Virus record (IMG/VR): IMGVR_UViG_2778261642_000006 | Origin: a virus | Lineage: Duplodnaviria > Heunggongvirae > Uroviricota > Caudoviricetes | Length of the DNA: 42,980 nucleotides | Reading direction: 5' to 3' (one strand) | Shown: in pieces, positions 1-42,980 of the stretch | Layout: each line of letters starts with the position of its first letter | How positions within the stretch are numbered: the first letter of the stretch is position 1 | Position numbers and translations under genes: made by a program | Notes under the pieces: model-generated | The model's input: the letters and a program-made list of their open reading frames with translations, nothing else | Databases searched by the model: none | What the model was told of the DNA's origin: nothing

Positions 1-1284
1 CTACTTCTTCGCCTCTGCAACCACTTTGCTACCCACGCCGCGGTTATTGTATTCCCACATGCGGTTGTAGTTAGTGTCATTCAGATTGCGCTGTACTTCG
101 TCGTTATCATCAACGCTGCCGGTGTTACCCGCAAATGGACGATTAGAGATCACCGCATCAGCCCACGGTTTGGCTGTGTTAAAACCTTCGTTGATGGCGC
201 TATCACGGATCACTACCTGACCGTTGGTATTGGCATCAACATCCAGCGAGCGGCCCAGTTGCGCCACGCCATCACCGGAAGCATTGAAACGGCTGTTTAC
301 GGCGAGGAAACCGTAGTAAATGTTGGACAGCGTAGCCGGTGCAAACACATACGCTTCTTGCTGGGTACGGGAGTTCACCACGCGGAATTCGGTGTTATCG
401 AACACCACTGCGCCGCGACCAGAAACGATATCCACATCCCCTTCAATATAGCTGTTGGTCACCAGCGTACGTGGCTGACGATTCGTTTCCAGACGGTTCT
501 GCACACCGCTGTTGGTGACAAAGAAGGTGTTCTGACGACCGAGAATGTTGACGTTATTGATCTGCACTTTGTCGCCATCAGTACGCAGTGCCACCGCCGG
601 ATGGTTACCCGCATCTACGCTATCGCCCAGCGTGTTTTCGATGGTCAGGTTTTGCAGTTGCAGGCCATTGTTTTGTGACCAGAAGACCGCAGAGCAGAGA
701 ACACCGATACTGTCGCTGCGTTTACTCTGGCAGCTATCGTACATATACCACGCCGGTTTACCTGGCATATATTTGCCGCGCGGGTTGACGTCGTGACGCC
801 AGTCGGCAGGGCTCATGCCACCATCAAGGGAAAGCCCAATCTTCACATCAATCGGTTTTTCACCCGTACCGTACAGAGTAATTCCACCCGGAGCGGCAGG
901 GACATACACCGTTCCCTGATACTCACCAGGCATCACGGCAATATACTGGCGCTTGTTGGTACGCTTGATAATTGCCGCATCTACCGCCGCCTGAATCGTG
1001 GTATGCGTTACACCTTGAGTACCCGCCGGGCCGACAACAAAGTCAGGTTGCGCAGGCAGGGTAATCGGGGAAGGATTCCACGCTGCCGCACCTGGTGTCA
1101 GGGATGCAAAATAGTGTTGAGCATCGAAATTCTGCGCTTCTTTTGCCGACAGAATCGGGCGCGAAGAGGTACCAGGCGCGGTTTGATCAGAAGGACGTTG
1201 ATCGGGCGGTGTTGAGCTACAGGCGGTCAGCGTCACGCCAAAAGCCAATGCCAGCGCCAGACGGGAAACTGAAAATGTGTTCAC
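1..1284 (-). CDS. ybhC: Host lipoprotein YbhC-like (pectinesterase / acyl-CoA thioesterase family)
   Basis: 427-aa ORF with lipoprotein signal (LTACSS); recalled match to E. coli YbhC, the gene flanking attB-lambda; lies just outside the attL core. Confidence 0.85.
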   Translation of the reverse strand: MNTFSVSRLALALAFGVTLTACSSTPPDQRPSDQTAPGTSSRPILSAKEAQNFDAQHYFASLTPGAAAWNPSPITLPAQPDFVVGPAGTQGVTHTTIQAAVDAAIIKRTNKRQYIAVMPGEYQGTVYVPAAPGGITLYGTGEKPIDVKIGLSLDGGMSPADWRHDVNPRGKYMPGKPAWYMYDSCQSKRSDSIGVLCSAVFWSQNNGLQLQNLTIENTLGDSVDAGNHPAVALRTDGDKVQINNVNILGRQNTFFVTNSGVQNRLETNRQPRTLVTNSYIEGDVDIVSGRGAVVFDNTEFRVVNSRTQQEAYVFAPATLSNIYYGFLAVNSRFNASGDGVAQLGRSLDVDANTNGQVVIRDSAINEGFNTAKPWADAVISNRPFAGNTGSVDDNDEVQRNLNDTNYNRMWEYNNRGVGSKVVAEAKK

Positions 1285-1330: not shown

Positions 1331-1345
1331 GCTTTTTTATACTAA
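1331..1345. repeat. attL core (GCTTTTTTATACTAA)
   Basis: Exact lambda att core followed by P' arm sequence (…attataaaaaagcattgcttatcaatttgttgcaacgaacaggtcactatcag…) leading into int. Confidence 0.85.
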
Positions 1346-1418: not shown

Positions 1419-2489
1419 TTATTTGATTTCAATTTTGTCCCACTCCCTGCCTCTGTCATCACGATACTGTGATGCCATGGTGTCCGACTTATGCCCGAGA
1501 AGATGTTGAGCAAACTTATCGCTTATCTGCTTCTCATAGAGTCTTGCAGACAAACTGCGCAACTCGTGAAAGGTAGGCGGATCCCCTTCGAAGGAAAGAC
1601 CTGATGCTTTTCGTGCGCGCATAAAATACCTTGATACTGTGCCGGATGAAAGCGGTTCACGACGAGTAGATGCAATTATGGTTTCTCCGCCAAGAATCTC
1701 TTTGCATTTATCAAGTGTTTCCTTCATTGATATCCCGAGAGCATCAACATGCAATGTTGTAGGGATGGCAATTTTTACGCCTGTTTTGCTTTGTTCGACA
1801 TAAAGATATCCATCTACGATATCAGACCACTTCATTTCGCATAAATCCCCAACACGCTGCCCGGTAACAACAGCCAGTTCCATTGCAAGTCTGAGCCAAC
1901 ATGGTGATGATTCTGCTGCTTGATAAATTTTCAGGTATTCGTCAGCCGTAAGTCTTGATCTCCTTACCTCTGATTTTGCTGCGCGAGTGGCAGCGACCGG
2001 GTTTGTTGTTATATGGCCTTCAGCTATTGCCTCTCGGAATGCATCGCTCAGTGTTGATCTGATTAACTTGGCTGATGCCGCCTTGCCCTCGTCTATGTAT
2101 CCATTGAGCATTGCCGCAATTTCTTTTGTGGTGATGTCTTCAAGTGGAACATCAGGTAGACCCCTCCTTATTGCTTTAATTTTGCTCATGTAATTTATGA
2201 GTGTCTTCTGCTTGATTCCTCTGCTGGCGAGGATTTTTTCGTAGCGATCAAGCCATGAATGTAACGTAACAGAATTATCACTGTTGATTCTTGCTGTCAG
2301 AGGCTTGTGTTTGTGTCCTGAAAATAACTCAATGTTGGCCTGTATAGCTTCAGTGATTGCTATCCTCCTGTCTCGGCCTAATCCAAACTCTTTACCCGTC
2401 CTTGGGTCCCTGTAGCAGTAATATCCATTGTTTCTTATATAAAGGTTAGGGGGTAAATCCCGGCGCTCATGACCTCGCCTTCTTCCCAT
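1419..2489 (-). CDS. int: Tyrosine integrase, lambda Int-like
   Basis: 356 aa; N-terminus MGRRRGHERRDLPPNLYIRNNGYYCYRDPRTGKEFGLG matches recalled lambda Int; adjacent to attL; overlaps xis as in lambda. Confidence 0.95.
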   Translation of the reverse strand: MGRRRGHERRDLPPNLYIRNNGYYCYRDPRTGKEFGLGRDRRIAITEAIQANIELFSGHKHKPLTARINSDNSVTLHSWLDRYEKILASRGIKQKTLINYMSKIKAIRRGLPDVPLEDITTKEIAAMLNGYIDEGKAASAKLIRSTLSDAFREAIAEGHITTNPVAATRAAKSEVRRSRLTADEYLKIYQAAESSPCWLRLAMELAVVTGQRVGDLCEMKWSDIVDGYLYVEQSKTGVKIAIPTTLHVDALGISMKETLDKCKEILGGETIIASTRREPLSSGTVSRYFMRARKASGLSFEGDPPTFHELRSLSARLYEKQISDKFAQHLLGHKSDTMASQYRDDRGREWDKIEIK

Positions 2490-4153: not shown

Positions 4154-4345
4154 CTATTTCACCTTAATCTCAACATTTCGCAGCTTTAGCTCCACTGGCA
4201 GGTCTGACTTTCCGGTTAAAGCTAATGCGAGATTTTCTGGAGTAATGAGAGCTGTTATTGTTTTCCCCATCGCCAGACGAATAATCATTCGTATCTCGCA
4301 ATCGTCACATGCTCCCGGTCGAACAATTGATATTTGTCCGTTCAT
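4154..4345 (-). CDS. Hypothetical small protein
   Basis: 63-aa ORF tightly packed between neighbouring genes (stop 3 nt from the next start). Confidence 0.45.
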   Translation of the reverse strand: MNGQISIVRPGACDDCEIRMIIRLAMGKTITALITPENLALALTGKSDLPVELKLRNVEIKVK

Positions 4346-4346
4346 C

Positions 4347-4799
4347 TCACTTCCCCTTCACACCAATGTTGGCGGCGGCGCGCTCGGCTTCACTTTGTTC
4401 CCAAAACCACTTGTGAAGCGCCATAAGCTTTTCGTCAATCGGTGCATATTTGCGATTAAAGTAGGCCTGAGCATCTTTCTCAGATTCGTCCGGTAATTCG
4501 CCAGGGCCAAACAGTGTGTTATAAATCCATGCCAGTCCGCTTTTAGCGTCGCCAGTCGATTGCCATTCGATAATGGCAGCCTGCATGACCAGAATGTTTT
4601 TCCCGATTAATAGGTCCAGTTCTTTGTACCTGTTGCGGATGTATGCATTCTCGCTTTGTAATTCAGCGTTTCGCTTCTCTGCTGCTTCTATCTCATCCAG
4701 CAGCGCGTTAGCTTCATACTCTCTCAACACCACTGTGTCGAAGCTTTCGGCCTGCTTTTTGATTTTTGCAATCAGCGCCTGTTTGTTGATGTTGCTCAT
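4347..4799 (-). CDS. Ea22-like coiled-coil protein
   Basis: 150 aa from MSNINKQ…; GGAG RBS; start overlaps upstream stop as ATGA; coiled-coil composition typical of lambdoid Ea22-like proteins. Confidence 0.55.
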   Translation of the reverse strand: MSNINKQALIAKIKKQAESFDTVVLREYEANALLDEIEAAEKRNAELQSENAYIRNRYKELDLLIGKNILVMQAAIIEWQSTGDAKSGLAWIYNTLFGPGELPDESEKDAQAYFNRKYAPIDEKLMALHKWFWEQSEAERAAANIGVKGK

Positions 4800-26831: not shown

Positions 26832-27725
26832 ATGGATCAGATGGCAGAAAACACACCAGAAGTTGAAATCGAAACCGACGCGTCAGAGCAGATTCCTGAT
26901 GATGTCGAACTGGCTGAAGAAGTCGAAACAGAAGATGGCAGTGAGTCCTCCGGCAATGATGCAGAGGAAGCTACTGAAACTGATGACGACGAATCAGAGC
27001 AGGAATTCTACTTTGGTGACGAAAAGCTGGATTCGCCAACCAGCGAAGATGGCGCAGAGCATGGACTGGTAAAACACCTGCGCAAGACGATTAAAGAGAA
27101 AGACCGCGAACTGAAAGAGCTGATGCGTCAGTCTCAGAAACCCGTCGAGCAGCAGCCGGTAATCACTCAACCACCGCGAATGCCAAAACTGGATGATGAG
27201 GACATCGGTTTCGATGAAGAAATCTATCAGCAACGTATGGCTAAGTGGGCAGAGGAAAACGGCAAATACCAGGAGCAAGTACGAGAGCGGAAACGAGAGG
27301 AAGAGGCGCGTACCGCAACTCTTCAGCAGAAAGCAGCCAATTACATGCAGAGAGTAAAAGCACTGAAAGTGGCTGGCTACCAGGATGCAGAGCAGGCTGT
27401 ACGCGAAGATGTTCCTGTTCATATTCAGGACATGATCCTTCTTGAGTCAGAGAAGCCGGAAATCGTTGTTCTGGCGCTCGGCCGCAACGCTGAACTGCGC
27501 AAGCAACTGGCAGAAGCTACCAACCCCGTAGCAATTGGTCGTCTGCTGGAACGTATCGAATCGAAGGCCAGAATCATGCCAAAAGCAAAAACCACGGCAG
27601 CCACAACCCCGACAGTTAAGGGGAGCAACGGCGCAGTAATCAATAACCTCGACAAACTGAAAGCCAAGGCGCTGGAAACTGGTGACTGGACGCCGTATTT
27701 CGCCGCTAAAAAGGCAAAAAAATAA
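26832..27725 (+). CDS. Scaffolding protein (P22 gp8-like)
   Basis: 297 aa; highly acidic N-terminus, coiled-coil middle, basic C-terminus; between portal and coat. Confidence 0.75.
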   Translation: MDQMAENTPEVEIETDASEQIPDDVELAEEVETEDGSESSGNDAEEATETDDDESEQEFYFGDEKLDSPTSEDGAEHGLVKHLRKTIKEKDRELKELMRQSQKPVEQQPVITQPPRMPKLDDEDIGFDEEIYQQRMAKWAEENGKYQEQVRERKREEEARTATLQQKAANYMQRVKALKVAGYQDAEQAVREDVPVHIQDMILLESEKPEIVVLALGRNAELRKQLAEATNPVAIGRLLERIESKARIMPKAKTTAATTPTVKGSNGAVINNLDKLKAKALETGDWTPYFAAKKAKK

Positions 27726-27743
27726 CCTATCGGAGCATTAAGC

Positions 27744-36482: not shown

Positions 36483-36812
36483 TTAGTCATCCATGGATGG
36501 ATTGAGCTTATCTCGTGTTGATGTGGCAATTTTCCCAACATTTTTCAACCAAGATTTTAAGAAGGATATGTCGTCCTTAATATCATGAATATCCTCATTC
36601 TTTATACGATCAACCTTATCCTCTAGGCTCTCTATAGAACGCTCAATGCTAGACAGAGAGATTTTTAAGTCTCCTTGATCACGTTCCAGTGAGGATTTGA
36701 GAGCACAATATTCGTTTTCTAGAATTCCTATTTTTTTTGTTAGAGAGTGCATTCGATACTCATACACCAAACCAGAAACGACTAATGCAGCCAACAGAAA
36801 CCATTCAAGCAC
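36483..36812 (-). CDS. Hypothetical membrane-anchored coiled-coil protein (sieA-position accessory gene)
   Basis: 109 aa from GTG with AAGGAGG RBS 5 nt upstream; N-terminal hydrophobic helix (LEWFLLAALVVSGLVYEY) then heptad-rich region. Confidence 0.5.
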   Translation of the reverse strand: MLEWFLLAALVVSGLVYEYRMHSLTKKIGILENEYCALKSSLERDQGDLKISLSSIERSIESLEDKVDRIKNEDIHDIKDDISFLKSWLKNVGKIATSTRDKLNPSMDD

Positions 36813-36842
36813 ACCAACCTCCTTAGTTTTGCGCAGGATACC

Positions 36843-37208
36843 ATGAAAAAAGTTAACATTGGAAACGTACCAAAGATGCTCGTTCCGCTCTTTGAGAGCG
36901 GTACAATTGTGTTTTGTAGAGACTTTCCAGAATGGCAACGCCTGCATCAAAAACTTGGCGTTGACGTGCATGACTCGGACGCCAACGGAGCGTCTCATAC
37001 AATGAGTAGCGAGAATGGTGTTTTGCATGTGATAGGCGTGTTCAATGGCAAACTATCTACTATTGCCCATGAGTGCGCTCACATGGCATTCGATATCTGC
37101 TCAAGGGTAGGTGTTGATGTTGAACCAGGAAGAGCCAACGAGACTTACTGCTACTTAATGAGCAGGCTTGTTGAGTTCTGCGAGCGACATATCAAAAAGC
37201 CGGAGTGA
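36843..37208 (+). CDS. Hypothetical protein with HEXXH zinc-metallopeptidase-like motif
   Basis: 121 aa; …STIAHECAHMAFDI…; divergent from the membrane gene with only ~30 bp between starts. Confidence 0.5.
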   Translation: MKKVNIGNVPKMLVPLFESGTIVFCRDFPEWQRLHQKLGVDVHDSDANGASHTMSSENGVLHVIGVFNGKLSTIAHECAHMAFDICSRVGVDVEPGRANETYCYLMSRLVEFCERHIKKPE

Positions 37209-37221
37209 CCCGGCTTGATTA

Positions 37222-37401
37222 TTACTTTTTGCTGTCTGGAGTTCGCTTATCCAATACCCAGCCATGACCTGGCTTTGTTGTTGGTGGAAGCCTTTCGTTG
37301 TCCTTGACGGTTGCAAAATTGTCTTTCTTACCGCCGCGTGGGCCAACTTCTTGGTATATTCCGCCGTTTTTTCCTGTGTTTTCACCTGGTTTTTTCGCCA
37401 T
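37222..37401 (-). CDS. Small YjzC-like protein
   Basis: 59 aa MAKKPGENTGKNGGIYQEVGPRGG…; GAGGT RBS; Gly/Pro/Lys-rich pattern recalled for YjzC-family proteins. Confidence 0.45.
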   Translation of the reverse strand: MAKKPGENTGKNGGIYQEVGPRGGKKDNFATVKDNERLPPTTKPGHGWVLDKRTPDSKK

Positions 37402-37500
37402 GATATACCTCAACATACACCCGTTATTGGGCGATTAAATATTGATCTCATTTTATAAGTAGTCAATATGGCCCAGGTAAATGCAAAAATTAACCCACCT

Positions 37501-37752
37501 TCAGGTGGGTTTTTTGTACAAATCCTTCAGCGTATCAAACACCATCTTCTTAACAAGCTCTGACTGCTCATCAGCGATGCGTTCCGCATCGTCTCGATAG
37601 CCTGAAATTTTGGATGGCTTTGATACAGCATCAGTCACTATCTGAACTAATTCTGAATTAAGAGAGCGACCATTGGATTTGGCTCGCTGTTTTAGTTTTT
37701 CCTTTAATTCGTAAGGTAGCCGCAGATTAAATTGCGGGTCATCTCTTCCCAT
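37501..37752 (-). CDS. mnt: Mnt repressor (ribbon-helix-helix, P22 immI)
   Basis: 83 aa MGRDDPQFNLRLPYELKEKLKQRAKSNGRSLNSELVQIVTDAVSKPSKISGYRDDAERIADEQSELVKKMVFDTLKDLYKKPT, closely matching recalled P22 Mnt. Confidence 0.9.
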   Translation of the reverse strand: MGRDDPQFNLRLPYELKEKLKQRAKSNGRSLNSELVQIVTDAVSKPSKISGYRDDAERIADEQSELVKKMVFDTLKDLYKKPT

Positions 37753-37815
37753 TCTTGATGCCTCGCTTTTGTGAGTGGATCGGCATCTTATTATCTGCTG
37801 GTTGCATCCTCAATA

Positions 37816-37830
37816 AGACCACAGTGGTCT
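37816..37830. promoter_or_regulatory. Putative Mnt operator (AGACCAC-A-GTGGTCT palindrome)
   Basis: Perfect 15-bp inverted repeat between mnt and the tailspike start, where P22 has Omnt/Pant. Confidence 0.55.
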
Positions 37831-37898
37831 CTTTGTTTGATTAATAATGCATCACTGTGGCAATGCTGCGGCGATTCCTTGTATCTGGAGCAAATTAA

Positions 37899-40550
37899 AT
37901 GACAGACATTACAGCCAATGTTGTAGTGAGTATGCCTTCGCAACTCTTCACTATGGCGCGTTCTTTTAAAGCCGTAGCCAATGGCAAAATTTATATCGGT
38001 AAAATTGACACTGACCCGGTAAATCCTGAAAACCGGATTCAGGTTTATGTGGAGAACGAAGACGGCTCTCACGTTCCTGTATCGCAGCCAATCATCATTA
38101 ACGCTGCCGGATATCCTGTATATAACGGACAGATTGCCAAATTCGTTACTGTACAGGGCCATTCTATGGCTGTTTATGATGCGTATGGTTCGCAGCAGTT
38201 CTATTTTCCAAACATTCTGAAATATGATCCTGATCAGTTTAAACAAGAACTAGAGAATAAATTTAACAATGGTTCAACTCCATCAATTATAAATTATAAG
38301 TACGGTCTTCCAGAAGAAGTAGACGGAGCAACACAAAGGACGCTACAGGATAAACTTGATGACCATGTAAATGTTCGCGATTTTGGTGCAAAAGGGGATG
38401 GCATTACTGACGATACAGACGCAATAACAAGTGCCATCATTTACTGCGCATCTAACGGAAAACGCCTGAAGTGGGATTCTGGTGTGTATTTGATTAGCCG
38501 CATAAAATGCGGCGGGGATAATTATAACTATGACTGGGTAGCTGATGGCAAGGTTGTCTTAAAGTCAACCGCAAAAGAGCCTCTTGGCCCAAACTGGATT
38601 GATGATTATTTCATAAGACTCGAAGGTGGAGATGCCACGCCAATTGACTATAATTCAACAATAAATCCTGGTGACACATCAATATCAATTAACTCAGCAT
38701 ACTCTGTTGATGCAGGCGATATAATTATGATTCATGGCAATCGCTTAATTCAGACAGATAATAGAGGACAGGCTTGTGAAGGTGAAATGCATGTTGTTAC
38801 TGCTTTTGATAATGCAACAAAAAAAGCGGAGATATCAGGTGCATTTTATTTTTTCTACTCTGCGAGCAATGATTACTCAACGACCGTAACAGCATCTGTA
38901 TCCGGAGGTGAATTCTCATTTGGTAATGATGCAACATTAACAAAACAATACAATCAGGTAAAAGTAACAGGTGTCACCGGAGCTAACGCCGGAACATCAA
39001 GATACATAACTCATTGGGATTACGACACTAAAACAGCAAAATTTGAATATGCTCAGGGACCATTCCCGTTTAAACCATCTGTTGGAGACGTGTTTAAAAT
39101 CACAAGAAAGGCAAATATATATAAAAGAAAACCATGCTACGGCAGAATTGTTGGTGATTTCAATTTTGAAAGACCTGTCACGCAGAACGCATCTCCTGGT
39201 GATTTGGGGTTCCGTGGTCTTGTGATAGATGGCGCTGTTGATATGCATATAGAAGGAATAAAACTAATCGGCTTTTCAGAAACTGGAATTTTTCTTGAGT
39301 CATGCTACAGAACGAAAATAATAGAACCATATATTGAATACTCAAACCGTGCATATGATTTAACAAACGGCACTGGTTATGGTGTTGAAATATACAATAG
39401 CAGCTATTGCACAGTCGTGGATATGATAGCATTTGCTTGCAGGAGGGGGCTTGATGTAAGCGGGACTCAAATGGTATCACTGTATAATAACATTATAAAT
39501 CCAACGATGATGGGTGGTGGAACTGCATATGATGGAGTTAAATTTTTCCCTGATGGCGATACAAGAAATTCATGTTGCGGTGGACACGGCCCATCATACG
39601 AAACAACTTTTACAGGCGGCAATTCAGTCAATTTGTATTATGCTGGTGTAATACGCGGATTAAATGAAGTGTATGATGGAATGAACGCCAGGGGATTTAG
39701 CGGCCCGGCTCCTTTTTTTGTAAGATATAGTGGTGGTGGGTTCACGATTCAGAACTGTAATTATATTGATGGTTTTACTGAGATGTCTTTGCCATACAAC
39801 TTGAGGTACAAACCTGTGAATGCAACTCAACGTAATCACAGACCTCTTGTTTTTATTGAAACAACTCTGGCACAGACAGACAGAAACTCTTACTATAAAG
39901 AACTTCCTGTTGTTATTAAAAATAATACCGCAAGGACTGTTCTCAAGGGCTTTTTACGTTTTGAGGTTAATGATGGCCTCACCCCTCTAATCCAAAATAT
40001 TTATTTTGGTGGTAATTTATGTATGGCGAACCCAGAAACATCAGACTCTGTATCAGGGCAAACAGAGGCAGTAATGGTTTATTCATCTGTTCCTGGTGCA
40101 ATAATTGTTCGAAATTTCCATGATCTTGGCGGTAACAGAATTGTTCCTGTTGGAGCAGGATACAGATACTGCGGTATGTTCAACACGCCAGATGGAATAG
40201 CAGGAACAATAGTTCAACCAGACGGAAAATATCTAATAACACTTGAAGCCAACAAATCTACAAGTATCCTTGTTGGTGGATACGTACCATGTGTTCGCCT
40301 TGATATGCACGACATACTTGATATTCATGGGGTAATTGCAGTTGGTGTTCTTATTCATCGTGGTGAGGCAATTGATTTTTCTCCTTTAAAAGAAATTAAT
40401 AAGCAAAATGTTGTATTGAAAACCGGAGTTCTTTCAGATAATGATGGTGATGAAAATAACTTAAATATTTCGTTTGACTTTGCAACCATATATTTAAGCA
40501 ACAAGATGCCAAATAAGATTCAACTATCTATTGAAGTATCAGGAGTGTAA
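37899..40550 (+). CDS. Tailspike protein: P22-type head-binding domain plus long divergent beta-helix receptor-binding domain
   Basis: N-terminus [59 protein letters not shown]… matches recalled P22 gp9 N-terminus; 883 aa total. Confidence 0.9.
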
Positions 40551-40586
40551 TTGTATCAATTTGCTAAATTAAAAAAGGATAAAAAT

Positions 40587-40874
40587 ATGGATACAACACC
40601 AATAACACATGCAGTATGCGCGGTTATTGCGCAGATACTGGTTGGCCTTTCTACCGGAAACTGGGCTTACGGTGCGATAGCCGGTTGTACGTTCTTCATT
40701 GCGCGTGAACACACCCAGGCAGAATATCGCTGGATAGAAAAGTTTGGGAAAGGGAAACGCATCAACATGCCGTGGTGGGGAGGTTTTGATCCACGCGTGT
40801 GGGATGTGGGAAGTCTGTTGGATTTTTCTTTCCCAATTATCGGATGCTTATTGGTATGGATTCTTGCATCGTAG
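40587..40874 (+). CDS. Hypothetical small membrane protein downstream of tailspike
   Basis: 95 aa from MDTTPITHAVCAVIAQILVGLSTGNWAYGAIAGCTFFIA…; AAGGA RBS; two hydrophobic segments. Confidence 0.45.
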   Translation: MDTTPITHAVCAVIAQILVGLSTGNWAYGAIAGCTFFIAREHTQAEYRWIEKFGKGKRINMPWWGGFDPRVWDVGSLLDFSFPIIGCLLVWILAS

Positions 40875-40970
40875 CGAACACATAATTACCGATGAAACAA
40901 AACTGAGACACACAAAGCTTTGCACTGGATTGCGAGGCGTTGCGCTTCTCTGGAGTGCGACAGGTTTGAT

Positions 40971-41013
40971 GACAAAAAATTAGCGCAAGAAGACAAAAAC
41001 CACCTTGCGCTAA
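40971..41013 (-). terminator. lambda sib/tI-like hairpin in the attP P-arm
   Basis: TTAGCGCAAG…CTTGCGCTAA stem preceded on the forward strand by an A-run (U-tract on minus strand); surrounding sequence matches recalled lambda attP arm. Confidence 0.55.
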
Positions 41014-41159
41014 TGCTCTGTTACAGGTCACTAATACCATCTAAGTAGTTGATTCATAGTGACTGCATATGTTGTGTTTTACAGTATTATCTAGTCTATT
41101 TTTTATACGAAATGAAATGTAATATATTGATATTTATAACATTTTACGTTTCTCGTTCA

Positions 41160-41174
41160 GCTTTTTTATACTAA
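41160..41174. repeat. attR core (GCTTTTTTATACTAA)
   Basis: Exact repeat of the attL core, followed by attB-like …cttgagcgaaacggg. Confidence 0.85.
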
Positions 41175-41264
41175 CTTGAGCGAAACGGGAAGGTAAAAAG
41201 ACAAAAAGTTGTTTTTAATACCTTTAAGTGATACCAGATGGCATTGCGCCATCTGGCAGAGTGA

Positions 41265-41741
41265 TTAACTAAACATCGCAGTAATCGAGGCACTCGCCAG
41301 AGAGTGAAAATGAACGTTAAACCCGACCATCGCGCCGCTGGCACCTTCATCGACATCAATACGTTCTACATCCAGCGCGTGAACGGTAAAAATGTAGCGA
41401 TGGGTTTCGCCTTTCGGCGGCGCTGCGCCATCGTACCCGGTTTTACCAAAGTCGGTACGCGTCTGCAAAACGCCGTCTGGCATAGCTACCAGACCAGAGC
41501 CAAACCCTTGCGGTAATACGCGGGTATCAGCGGGTAAATTAACAACTACCCAGTGCCACCAGCCGGAGCCGGTTGGCGCATCCGGGTCATAGCAGGTGAC
41601 AACAAAACTTTTCGTTCCCACAGGAACATCATCCCACGCCAGATGCGGTGAAATATTATCGCCATCGTAACCCATGCCGTTAAAGACATGACGATGCGGC
41701 AGCTTATCGCCATCGCGCAGATCGTTACTGATGAGTTTCAT
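41265..41741 (-). CDS. ybhB: Host PEBP/UPF0098-family protein YbhB-like
   Basis: 158 aa; PEBP-like motifs (…CYDPDAPTGSGWWHWVVVNLP…); recalled as the gene on the bio side of attB-lambda. Confidence 0.85.
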   Translation of the reverse strand: MKLISNDLRDGDKLPHRHVFNGMGYDGDNISPHLAWDDVPVGTKSFVVTCYDPDAPTGSGWWHWVVVNLPADTRVLPQGFGSGLVAMPDGVLQTRTDFGKTGYDGAAPPKGETHRYIFTVHALDVERIDVDEGASGAMVGFNVHFHSLASASITAMFS

Positions 41742-41849
41742 TAGAATGCCTCCGGGAAACCTCGGCCTTCAGACCGGGGAGGAAAGGAGGCGGTTTTCCG
41801 ACTAACTGTACTTTGCATAATCACATTTTCCTCTTTAGTATGTGAACAC

Positions 41850-42980
41850 ATGAAACGCGCATATAAATACCGGTTTTACCCGACAACTGAGCAGGCTGAG
41901 CTTTTAGCTCAGACGTTTGGCTGTGTGCGCTTCGTCTACAATTCCATCCTTCGTTGGCGTACCGATGCGTACTACGAGCGAAAAGAAAAGATCGGTTATC
42001 TACAGGCCAACGCTCGCCTTACGGCGCTCAAAAAAGAGCCTGAATACATATGGCTGAATGATGTTTCCTGCGTTCCCCTCCAGCAGTCGTTGCGCCACCA
42101 ACAAGCCGCCTTTGCTAACTTCTTTGCCGGACGAGCTGCATATCCGGCTTTCAAAAGCAAACGGCACAAACAGGTGGCTGAGTTCACTGCCAGCGCGTTT
42201 AAACACCGTGACGGCGAGTTGTATATAGCAAAGAGCAAGTCGCCGCTGGATGTTCGCTGGAGTCGAGAATTACCATCTGCGCCGTCAACCGTTACCATTT
42301 CCAGAGATAGCGCTGGCAGGTACTTTGTTTCCTGCCTGTGTGAGTTTGAACCTGTATCAATGCCTGTTACCGCTAAAACGGTCGGCATTGATGTGGGCTT
42401 AAAAGATTTATTCGTCACCGATACCGGATTCAAAACCGACAATCCCCGCCACACCGCTAAATATGCGAAGCGATTAACGCTGCTACAGCGACGTTTAAGC
42501 AGGAAGCAAAAAGGCTCAAGAAACCGTATTAAAGCCCGCTTAAAGGTCGCCCGACTCCACGCGAAAATCGCCGATTGCCGGATGGACAATCTGCACAAGT
42601 TGTCCCGCAAACTGATTAACGAAAACCAAGTTGTTTGCGTCGAATCCCTCAAGGTGAAAAACATGATCCGCAACCCGAAGCTGTCTAAAGCAATAGCTGA
42701 CGCAGGCTGGAGCGAACTTGTTCGCCAGCTCCAGTACAAAGGCAAATGGGCCGGGCGGTCAGTGGTCGCCATTGACCAGTATTTACCGTCCTCAAAATGC
42801 TGTAGTTGCTGCGGTTTCACCATGCAAAAAATGCCTCTTAATGTTCGTAAATGGCACTGCCCTGAATGCGGCGCAGACCATGATCGCGACATTAACGCGG
42901 CACGTAATATTAAAGCTGCCGGGCTGGCAGTGTTAGCCCACGGAGAGCCTGTAAACCCTGAATCGCAGCACGCGGCTTAG
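41850..42980 (+). CDS. tnpB: IS200/IS605-family TnpB (OrfB) RuvC-like nuclease
   Basis: 376 aa; N-terminus MKRAYKYRFYPTTEQ; RuvC-like motifs (GIDVGLKDLFV, …DHDRDINAARNI) and zinc finger (CCSCCG…CPECG); stop codon is the last 3 nt of the window. Confidence 0.85.
   Translation: MKRAYKYRFYPTTEQAELLAQTFGCVRFVYNSILRWRTDAYYERKEKIGYLQANARLTALKKEPEYIWLNDVSCVPLQQSLRHQQAAFANFFAGRAAYPAFKSKRHKQVAEFTASAFKHRDGELYIAKSKSPLDVRWSRELPSAPSTVTISRDSAGRYFVSCLCEFEPVSMPVTAKTVGIDVGLKDLFVTDTGFKTDNPRHTAKYAKRLTLLQRRLSRKQKGSRNRIKARLKVARLHAKIADCRMDNLHKLSRKLINENQVVCVESLKVKNMIRNPKLSKAIADAGWSELVRQLQYKGKWAGRSVVAIDQYLPSSKCCSCCGFTMQKMPLNVRKWHCPECGADHDRDINAARNIKAAGLAVLAHGEPVNPESQHAA

What the first reader, a model, noticed from the sequence alone, without database searches (positions are those of the whole stretch)
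40587..41013. Small membrane protein after the tailspike, and a sib/tI-like hairpin facing host ybhB
A 95-aa two-helix membrane protein is the last prophage gene, a typical lysogenic-conversion slot. The lambda sib/tI hairpin in the attR P-arm is oriented to terminate minus-strand transcripts, which in the lysogen would come from ybhB.
Basis: inference. Interest (0 to 1): 0.35.

Follow-up and report, generated by a model that had tools for sequence, protein, structure and literature searches.

The report
Prophage right end: unknown membrane gene, lambda tI/sib
The right end of a P22-like prophage in E. coli carries a common, uncharacterised small membrane-protein gene and a copy of phage lambda's well-known tI/sib hairpin; both are real but ordinary, and the neighbouring host gene ybhB already has its own transcript end.

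Summary
Both features are at the stated coordinates. The ORF (40587..40874, +) is a real gene. It has an AAGGA ribosome-binding site, dN/dS of about 0.15-0.25, and a full-length match to PHROG 1443 (unknown function). It has no Pfam, NCBIfam or PADLOC match. AlphaFold2 predicts three helices, not two. Homologues occur in 35% of complete E. coli genomes, typically just downstream of tailspike or tail-fibre genes with differing receptor-binding domains. The 90%-identical gene of prophage Gally is at background in LB but induced in DMEM and in macrophages. Its function is unknown. My best guess is an inner-membrane accessory protein of the superinfection-exclusion type.

The hairpin (40980..41013) is lambda tI/sib. 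It differs from lambda by one loop base, lies 146 nt from the att core as in lambda, and has a U-tract only on the minus strand. Its established role is control of int in the non-integrated phage. Published Term-seq puts the ybhB mRNA 3' end at a host hairpin (window 41229), before the att core. So tI is at most a backstop for ybhB transcripts.

Novelty is low.

The parts
37899..40550 (+). Tailspike gene (883 aa). It has a P22-type head-binding N-terminus and a pectate-lyase-like body, and is the upstream neighbour of the ORF with a 36-nt gap.
   Evidence: Pfam Head_binding E=4e-66; RefSeq 'phage head-binding domain-containing protein'.
40575..40579 (+). AAGGA ribosome-binding site, 7 nt upstream of the ATG.
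   Evidence: Read directly from the sequence.
40587..40874 (+). 95-aa small membrane protein gene of family phrog_1443 (function unknown). Three helices are predicted. Invariant motif: H8 ... R40-E41-x-x-Q44-A45-E46-Y47-R48-W49 ... W72 ... P83.
   Evidence: RefSeq WP_021556115.1 'hypothetical protein'.
40909..41178 (.). Segment 95.6% identical to lambda 27473..27742 (sib, P arm and att core).
40972..41021 (-). tI/sib element. Core hairpin 40980..41013 (dG -14.8), U6 tract 40974..40979, extended stem 40972..41021 (dG -21.4, 20 pairs including 4 G-U on the minus strand).
   Evidence: annotated as terminator tI / sib in the O276 and HK97 records.
41014..41159 (.). P arm of attR (lambda-type Int arm sites region).
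   Evidence: Alignment to lambda and the lambda 'int 1/2/3' binding features.
41160..41174 (.). attR core GCTTTTTTATACTAA. An identical copy at 1331..1345 is the attL core.
41229..41258 (-). Host hairpin directly after the ybhB stop (11 bp, dG -19.2). The ybhB mRNA 3' end mapped by Term-seq in MG1655 corresponds to 41229.
   Evidence: Adams et al. 2021, PMC7815308, Suppl. file 1.
41265..41741 (-). Host gene ybhB, transcribed toward attR.
1419..2489 (-). Lambda-type integrase gene at the other prophage end. In the circular phage, tI/sib lies about 234 nt downstream of its stop codon.
   Evidence: the distance is computed from the coordinates.

Best explanation
This is the right end of a P22-like (Lederbergvirus-type) prophage that carries a lambda-type int-xis-attP-sib module and is integrated at att-lambda between ybhC and ybhB.

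(1) The hairpin is lambda's tI/sib. In the infecting or excised circular phage it lies about 234 nt downstream of int on the same strand. There it terminates non-antiterminated int transcripts. When antiterminated transcripts read through it, the longer stem forms and is cut by RNase III, which destabilises int mRNA (retroregulation; this is established lambda biology, not tested here). Integration moves it to the far end of the prophage, so it no longer acts on int. At attR it is essentially a passenger. At most it is a second barrier to leftward host read-through, because ybhB mRNA already ends at a host hairpin before the att core.

(2) The 95-aa ORF is a conserved small inner-membrane protein of family phrog_1443. 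It is transcribed together with the receptor-binding-protein gene that precedes it. Inferred, not shown: it acts at the cell envelope as an accessory protein, most likely blocking entry of incoming phage (superinfection-exclusion type), through the invariant RE-x-x-QAEYRW segment and the loop that follows helix 2.
For: Prophage and att module:
- Identical cores at 1331 and 41160, lambda-type int and xis at the left end, and ybhC and ybhB as flanks.

Hairpin:
- 95.6% identity to lambda across sib, P arm and core; one loop difference; the same 146-nt spacing to the core.
- The hairpin block is invariant in lambda, HK97 and Gally, although Gally has a different att core.
- The U-tract is on the minus strand only. 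The minus-strand fold has 20 pairs including 4 G-U (-21.4 kcal/mol), against 16 pairs (-17.3) on the plus strand.
- Depositors annotate the same sequence as tI and sib.

ybhB 3' end:
- It maps to the host hairpin.

ORF:
- It is under purifying selection.
- The family has 455 clusters at 50% identity, all stand-alone proteins of roughly 70-145 aa (most about 90-120).
- Three hydrophobic helices are predicted.
- It is repeatedly placed 0-287 nt downstream of a tailspike or fibre gene, or of the small ORF that follows the fibre gene, on the same strand. This holds in P22-like, lambda-like and P1-like elements.
- It is often the last gene before the predicted prophage end.
- The Gally homologue is induced 16- to 30-fold in macrophages, together with the tailspike gene, while other late genes stay silent.
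- Precedent: the small inner-membrane moron HK97 gp15 is a superinfection-exclusion protein and also has chromosomal homologues outside prophages (PMC3594210).
Against: - No experiment addresses the function of any member of the ORF family.
- It has no match to known defence or exclusion proteins (PADLOC).
- Fold searches give only generic helical-hairpin hits.
- An invariant polar motif conserved from Escherichia to Sphingomonas and Desulfovibrio is unusual for exclusion proteins. It hints at an enzymatic or ligand-binding role.
- At least one Aeromonas copy lies in an ordinary chromosomal context (others not examined).
- The Gally homologue is at background in LB, and the Tritos homologue stays at background in every condition.
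- RNase III cleavage and termination at this copy of tI were not tested.
- The Term-seq 3' end at the ybhB hairpin could be a processed end rather than a termination point. It was also measured in K-12 without a prophage.
Confidence: 0.6

Rival explanations
1. One reading: in the lysogen, tI at attR has a real function as the terminator of ybhB (and bio leftward) transcripts. It would insulate the prophage from host read-through and protect the convergent tailspike/ORF95 transcripts.
For: The orientation and U-tract are right for leftward transcripts. The ybhB hairpin lacks a good U-tract (UCACUUAAAGG), so some read-through is plausible. The arrangement recurs in many E. coli genomes with prophages at att-lambda.
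Against: The primary ybhB 3' end maps to the host hairpin before the core. The element is conserved next to att sites of different specificity and different host flanks (Gally at the HK022/torS site). This fits a phage-internal role rather than a role tied to ybhB. Its placement follows automatically from integration.
Confidence: 0.2
2. ORF95 is a lysogenic-conversion factor that alters O-antigen or LPS, for example by modulating the ligase, the polymerase or chain length. This would prevent adsorption of tailspike-bearing phages.
For: It occupies the slot used by gtrABC and oac in P22-like phages (established knowledge). One related locus has an Acyl_transf_3 gene after the tailspike, in the slot ORF95 occupies here. 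Most neighbouring receptor-binding proteins are glycan-directed: pectate-lyase, endosialidase-like and Peptidase_S74 types.
Against: The same protein (78-100% identical) follows tailspikes with many different receptor-binding domains and also lambda-type fibres. It has no similarity to Gtr, Oac or Wzy-inhibitor families. Relatives occur in bacteria and phage types with quite different envelopes.
Confidence: 0.15
3. ORF95 works in the lytic cycle as a late gene co-transcribed with the tailspike. Possible roles are a holin/antiholin-like membrane protein, or a factor that protects progeny from re-adsorbing to the dying cell.
For: The gap to the upstream receptor-binding gene is 0-91 nt in many loci, with no conserved promoter of its own. 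It is co-induced with the tailspike gene in LF82. It has three helices like class I holins. In a P1-like element it lies just upstream of the lydA holin gene and lydB.
Against: It lies far from the lysis cassette. It has no charged C-terminal tail, and holins rarely have an invariant polar motif. It has no consistent Pfam holin match: 1 of 83 members, E=0.004. It is expressed in LF82 while most late genes are silent.
Confidence: 0.15
4. ORF95 belongs to a cellular family of small membrane proteins with a catalytic or metal/ligand-binding site (H8, E41, Q44, E46). Its role would be unrelated to phage-phage conflict, and prophages merely carry it as cargo.
For: The polar residues are invariant across Alpha-, Beta- and Gammaproteobacteria and Desulfovibrio. 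An Aeromonas chromosomal copy sits among housekeeping genes.
Against: In Escherichia and the Enterobacteriaceae loci examined, the copies are in prophages or phage-plasmids, next to tail-fibre genes. The protein is very small and has no detectable relative of known function.
Confidence: 0.1

Closest known systems
Lambda tI terminator / sib retroregulation site (lambda 27544..27577 and flanks)
   Same: The sequence is identical except for one loop base. The spacing to the att core is the same 146 nt. The strand, U-tract and extended stem are the same. It is linked to a lambda-type int-xis-attP module.
   Different: It sits in a P22-like podophage backbone rather than in lambda, and the DNA to its left is the ORF95 gene instead of lambda's b region. 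Function at this copy was not tested.
Prophage Gally of E. coli LF82 (OV696608; Lederbergvirus), gene GALLYPH_17
   Same: The layout is the same: Mnt - tailspike - 95-aa ORF (90.5% identical) - sib - att - int - xis.
   Different: Gally has an HK022-type att core and integrates at torS. It has a different tailspike body, a 240-nt gap before the ORF, and an extra ~100-nt insert between the ORF and sib.
Small inner-membrane superinfection-exclusion morons (HK97 gp15; P22 SieA)
   Same: They are small, prophage-encoded, membrane-inserted and inserted among tail genes. HK97 gp15 also has chromosomal homologues outside prophages (PMC3594210).
   Different: There is no sequence relationship and no exclusion phenotype is known. 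The ORF95 family is far more widely conserved, with an invariant polar motif.
Lysogenic-conversion genes between tailspike and att in P22-like phages (P22 gtrABC, Sf6 oac)
   Same: Same genomic slot (from established knowledge). One related locus carries an Acyl_transf_3 gene there.
   Different: There is no homology. ORF95 is not tied to any one tailspike specificity.

Membership tests
Lambda tI/sib element | Sequence homology to the lambda hairpin and its flanks | tested here: met
   One loop base differs from lambda 27544..27577, and identity is 95.6% over 270 nt.
Lambda tI/sib element | Lies in the P-arm side of attP, downstream of int on the int-sense strand in the circular phage | tested here: met
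   It lies 146 nt from the core, as in lambda. int is at 1419..2489 (-) next to the attL core, which puts the element about 234 nt after the int stop in the circular form.
Lambda tI/sib element | GC-rich hairpin followed by a U-tract on the int-sense strand, plus a longer stem that includes the U-tract | tested here: met
   The hairpin is -14.8 kcal/mol and is followed by U6. The extended stem is -21.4 kcal/mol with 4 G-U pairs, and is weaker on the plus strand.
Lambda tI/sib element | Termination of PI transcripts and RNase III cleavage of read-through transcripts | not testable with these tools
   This needs in vitro or in vivo RNA mapping.
PHROG 1443 | Full-length match to the family profile | tested here: met
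   E=6.9e-53, residues 1-94 against profile positions 1-94 of 97.
Superinfection-exclusion membrane proteins | Membrane insertion | tested here: inconclusive
   This is prediction only: three hydrophobic helices at pLDDT 85, plus hydropathy.
Superinfection-exclusion membrane proteins | Expressed from the repressed prophage | tested here: inconclusive
   Published LF82 RNA-seq shows the Gally homologue at background in LB and induced in DMEM and macrophages. The Perceval homologue is weakly induced and the Tritos homologue is not. There are no data for this strain.
Superinfection-exclusion membrane proteins | Blocks infection by other phages | not testable with these tools
   This needs plating and DNA-entry assays. 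PADLOC has no match.
O-antigen modification genes (GtrA/GtrB/Gtr-specific, Acyl_transf_3 Oac) | Homology to one of these families | tested here: not met
   No Pfam or NCBIfam match for the ORF or for 83 diverse relatives.
Holins | Located in the lysis cassette, with a charged C-terminal tail and a holin family match | tested here: not met
   The ORF lies at the prophage end next to the tailspike gene. Its C-terminus is hydrophobic (…LLVWILAS). Only 1 of 83 relatives has a weak Phage_holin_8 hit.
Intrinsic terminator of ybhB (host) | Stable hairpin after the stop codon with a mapped RNA 3' end just downstream | tested here: met
   An 11-bp stem (-19.2 kcal/mol; region z=-5.4) is present. The Term-seq primary 3' end at MG1655 807397(-) equals window 41229 and the sequence is identical. 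The U-tract is poor, so a processed end cannot be excluded.

The most novel reading that the evidence does not exclude
PHROG 1443 may be an unrecognised, very widespread envelope-acting phage accessory family. It is found in 35% of complete E. coli genomes, comprises 455 clusters at 50% identity, and occurs from Gammaproteobacteria to Alphaproteobacteria. It travels with receptor-binding-protein genes of podo-, sipho- and myovirus-type elements. Its invariant H...RE-x-x-QAEYRW...W...P motif may carry out a new mechanism of superinfection exclusion or of host membrane modification. The closest homologue is switched on inside macrophages.
Probability: 0.3. Interest if true: 0.5.

Novelty: new member of a known kind. 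Interest (0 to 1): 0.2.

Why it matters
The hairpin adds nothing new. It is a textbook element, and its position at attR is a geometric consequence of integration.

The ORF has modest value. It is one of the commonest unannotated prophage genes in E. coli. It has a sharply conserved motif, sits at a constant position after receptor-binding genes, and is induced in macrophages in a Crohn's-associated strain. A simple expression and deletion screen could assign a function to hundreds of thousands of 'hypothetical protein' entries. That is an opportunity for the whole family, not something special to this window.

Tried and rejected
Searches on the ORF and its relatives that found nothing informative:
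- Pfam, NCBIfam and PADLOC scans of the ORF gave nothing above noise.
- A Pfam scan of 83 diverse relatives gave only scattered weak hits, with no consistent family.
- A profile search of PDB sequences found nothing.
- The AFDB library was unavailable.

Other negative results:
- Rfam found no family in 40400..41900.
- The simple terminator scan missed both hairpins. The tI loop of 13-14 nt exceeds its limit, and the ybhB hairpin lacks the U-run.
- The promoter scan found no more sites than expected by chance (5 against 3.8), so no promoter is claimed for the ORF.
- Literature searches for retroregulation/sib, and for ybhB read-through in lysogens, found nothing directly relevant in the held library.
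- A CRISPRi study of LF82 reports no phenotype for the Gally homologue.

Ideas considered and rejected:
- A lipoprotein, because there is no lipobox.
- A partner gene, because the downstream neighbours are unrelated: holin LydA, a UmuD-like gene, integrase, Pin or sitD.

Full report
**Setting**

The window is a complete prophage with its host flanks.
- The 15-bp lambda att core GCTTTTTTATACTAA occurs twice, at 1331..1345 and at 41160..41174.
- To the left are host ybhC (1..1284, -) and, inside the prophage, a lambda-type int (1419..2489, -) and xis.
- To the right are ybhB (41265..41741, -), a solo TnpB/InsQ gene (41850..42980, +) and then bioA.
- The sequence is 100% identical to the chromosome of E. 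coli strain YP3.
- The tailspike (37899..40550) has the P22-type head-binding domain. The gene order Mnt - tailspike - small ORF - sib - att - int - xis matches the Lederbergvirus prophage Gally of strain LF82.
- So this is a P22-like phage with a lambda-type integration module, sitting at att-lambda.

**The ORF: is it real?**

- It runs from the ATG at 40587 to the stop ending at 40874 (95 aa). AAGGA lies 7 nt upstream.
- It matches PHROG 1443 (unknown function) over its full length, E=7e-53.
- It has no Pfam, NCBIfam or PADLOC match.
- 574 homologues were found in the 90%-clustered protein collection. The profile search found 455 clusters at 50% identity. The listed hits are roughly 60-145 aa, most about 90-120, with no added domains, and the named ones are all called hypothetical.
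- Pairwise dN/dS against 45 distinct viral copies is 0.15-0.25 at dS of 0.3-0.9, which shows purifying selection.
- It is a real gene.

**The ORF: what does it look like?**

- AlphaFold2 with an 85-sequence alignment gives pLDDT 85 and three helices, at residues 4-23, 26-53 and 74-94.
- The first two helices form a hydrophobic hairpin. The second continues into a polar segment.
- The loop at 54-73 is rich in Arg and Lys. By the positive-inside rule it probably faces the cytoplasm (inference).
- Conservation is striking for so small a protein. H8, R40, E41, Q44, A45, E46, W72 and P83 are invariant or nearly so, even among relatives only 30-50% identical.
- Fold and sequence searches against solved and viral structures gave nothing specific.

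**The ORF: where is it found?**

- It is in 1918 of 5426 complete E. coli genomes, with a median of two and up to seven copies per positive genome.
- It is in 435 IMG/VR viral contigs.
- It is also in Aeromonas, Comamonas, Leclercia, Sphingomonas-group and Desulfovibrio genomes.
- The position is remarkably constant. The gene is on the same strand as, and 0-287 nt downstream of, a receptor-binding-protein gene (or the small ORF that follows a fibre gene). These include:
  - P22-type tailspikes with the same head-binding N-terminus but at least seven different bodies, including an endosialidase-like one;
  - lambda-type Stf fibres;
  - Peptidase_S74 fibres;
  - the S/U fibre genes of a P1-like phage-plasmid;
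  - a pectate-lyase spike in Citrobacter;
  - GpJ in Comamonas.
- Exceptions among the 80 viral loci are insertion-sequence or tandem-prophage junctions: an IS66 transposase, an IS1-like fragment, and L041 (see the last section).
- In many predicted prophages it is the last gene.
- One Aeromonas copy lies among ordinary chromosomal genes.
- No consistent downstream partner was found.

**The ORF: is it expressed?**

- Published RNA-seq of LF82 covers three homologues (Misson et al. 2023, PMC9928086).
- The Gally gene (GALLYPH_17, 90.5% identical, same slot) is at prophage background in overnight LB (log2 3.75 and 4.53). The authors therefore listed no morons for Gally.
- The same gene rises to 6.0-7.0 in DMEM and 7.9-8.7 inside macrophages. 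It rises together with the tailspike gene, Mnt and two upstream genes, while terminase, portal and injection genes stay near 3.
- The Perceval homologue rises from about 3.5 to about 6. The Tritos homologue does not move.
- So the closest relative can be transcribed in a lysogen without a full lytic programme, but only under some conditions and apparently as part of the tailspike transcript.

**The ORF: what does it do?**

- Nothing here shows a function.
- The link to many different receptor-binding domains argues against a serotype-specific O-antigen modification. There is also no homology to Gtr or Oac proteins.
- The hydrophobic C-terminus and the location away from the lysis genes argue against a holin.
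- The best-fitting model is a small inner-membrane accessory protein of the superinfection-exclusion type, by analogy with HK97 gp15. That protein is also small, membrane-inserted, embedded among tail genes, and has chromosomal homologues (PMC3594210).
- I put this at roughly one in three.
- The invariant polar motif and the wide taxonomic spread leave room for an enzymatic or ligand-binding role.

**The hairpin**

- Window 40909..41178 is 95.6% identical to lambda 27473..27742.
- The hairpin arms (40980-40989 and 41004-41013) and their flanks are invariant in lambda, HK97 and Gally, while the sequences around them diverge. Gally even has a different att core.
- The only difference from lambda is one base in the loop.
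- The distance to the core is 146 nt in both.
- On the minus strand the hairpin (-14.8 kcal/mol) is followed by UUUUUUGU. A longer stem, 40972..41021, pairs the U-tract with upstream bases (-21.4 kcal/mol, 20 pairs, 4 of them G-U). The plus-strand version is weaker, at 16 pairs and -17.3.
- The O276 record annotates the equivalent 40 nt as 'Transcription terminator tI' on the minus strand. The HK97 record annotates it as the 'sib retroregulation site'.
- The identification as lambda tI/sib is secure.
- Its known role is in the non-integrated phage. In the circular form of this phage it lies about 234 nt downstream of int. There it terminates int transcripts or, on read-through, forms the RNase III site that destabilises them. 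This is established lambda biology and was not tested here.

**Does it 'face' ybhB in a meaningful way?**

- Geometrically, yes. ybhB is transcribed leftward toward attR, and tI has the right polarity.
- But the host DNA between the ybhB stop and the core contains its own 11-bp hairpin (41232..41258, -19.2 kcal/mol; region z=-5.4).
- Term-seq in MG1655 lists a 'primary' ybhB 3' end at 807397(-). The surrounding 61 nt are identical to window 41279..41219. That places the end at window 41229, a few bases after that hairpin. This is 54 nt before the core and about 250 nt before the tI U-tract (Adams et al. 2021, PMC7815308, Suppl. file 1).
- Caveats: the U-tract there is poor, so the end could arise by trimming back to the hairpin. 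The data come from one growth-condition sheet of a prophage-free K-12.
- tI at attR is best seen as a passenger that may catch residual read-through.

**Verdict**

The identities and the geometry are right, but the functional claims are untested or weakened.
- The hairpin is already known.
- The ORF is a new copy of a known-unknown family. It is mildly interesting as a family, but not as a peculiarity of this window.

**Other things seen**

- A TnpB gene lies between ybhB and bioA.
- Tailspike bodies are swapped in front of a constant ORF.
- Gally's ORF-sib spacer holds a fossil of an integrase 3' end.
- L041 is a tandem-prophage junction at an HK022-type att site. A first prophage ends tailspike - Acyl_transf_3 - sib - P arm - core. 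A fibre-gene end, ORF95 and an integrase gene of a second element follow.
- PHROG 1361 small ORFs recur between fibre genes and PHROG 1443.
- In the published LF82 data, tail-fibre genes of three prophages are induced in macrophages without the rest of the late operon.

Noticed in passing
window 41850..42980 (+): A solo TnpB/InsQ (RNA-guided endonuclease family) gene lies between ybhB and bioA, divergent from ybhB. It is present in this strain and in a minority of E. coli genomes. It separates ybhB from bioA, so ybhB may here depend on a promoter in the 108-nt gap. A promoter-like site with an extended -10 lies at 41846..41817 (-).
   Followed up: partly
window 37899..40550, and loci L018-L040: P22-type tailspikes with near-identical head-binding N-termini but at least seven different C-terminal bodies (663-912 aa, one endosialidase-like) precede near-identical copies of the 95-aa ORF. 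The window tailspike has 39% GC against 48% for the ORF. This is a mosaic joint, with the small ORF on the constant side.
   Followed up: partly
L003 (Gally) 4289..4495, and L041 5340..5470: The spacer between the Gally ORF and its sib hairpin contains about 85 nt nearly identical to the 3' end of an integrase gene that is intact in L041 (5383..6576, -). It is a recombination fossil. The ORF's 3' flank (CGAACACATAATTAC...CACACAAAGCTTTGCACTGGATTGC) travels with the ORF, and part of it is also present in lambda at about 27473-27505.
   Followed up: partly
L041 1438..6576: A tandem prophage junction at an HK022-type att site: tailspike - Acyl_transf_3 (Oac-like) - sib hairpin - P arm - core - C-terminal end of a fibre gene - 95-aa ORF - integrase.
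   Followed up: partly
L005 6001..6309 (Aeromonas rivipollensis chromosome): A family member (59% identical) lies between a pirin gene and a RIO1 kinase gene, near lipid A acyltransferase genes, with no phage genes within 6 kb. Other Aeromonas species also carry copies (L102-L105), whose contexts I did not examine. The family may have a cellular origin or role.
   Followed up: no
L007 3637..3906; L013 4601..4888; L017 3710..3988; L098 3710..3988: An 89-95-aa ORF of PHROG 1361 (unknown function) repeatedly sits between the tail-fibre gene and the PHROG 1443 gene in lambda-like and P1-like elements. It is absent from the P22-like layout.
   Followed up: partly
Published LF82 RNA-seq (PMC9928086, S1 Table); corresponds to window 36483..40874: In macrophages, the tailspike or tail-fibre genes of three different LF82 prophages (Gally, Perceval, Tritos) are induced 6- to 40-fold while the rest of each late operon stays silent. 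This suggests internal promoters ahead of receptor-binding genes in lysogens. In the window, an Arc/Mnt-family repressor gene (37501..37752, -) diverges from the tailspike gene with no ant gene between them.
   Followed up: partly
window 36483..37028 (-) and 36843..37208 (+): Two overlapping, oppositely oriented ORFs between the ejection-protein genes and mnt match PHROGs 5962 and 1365 (both of unknown function). RefSeq calls a shorter version of the first.
   Followed up: no
L165 500..661 (phage DN1, a lambda-DE3 bio-transducing derivative): That record annotates an 'antisense RNA' on the plus strand ending just before the tI hairpin, and it also carries attR-ybhB-bioA. I did not work out what the annotation rests on.
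   Followed up: no
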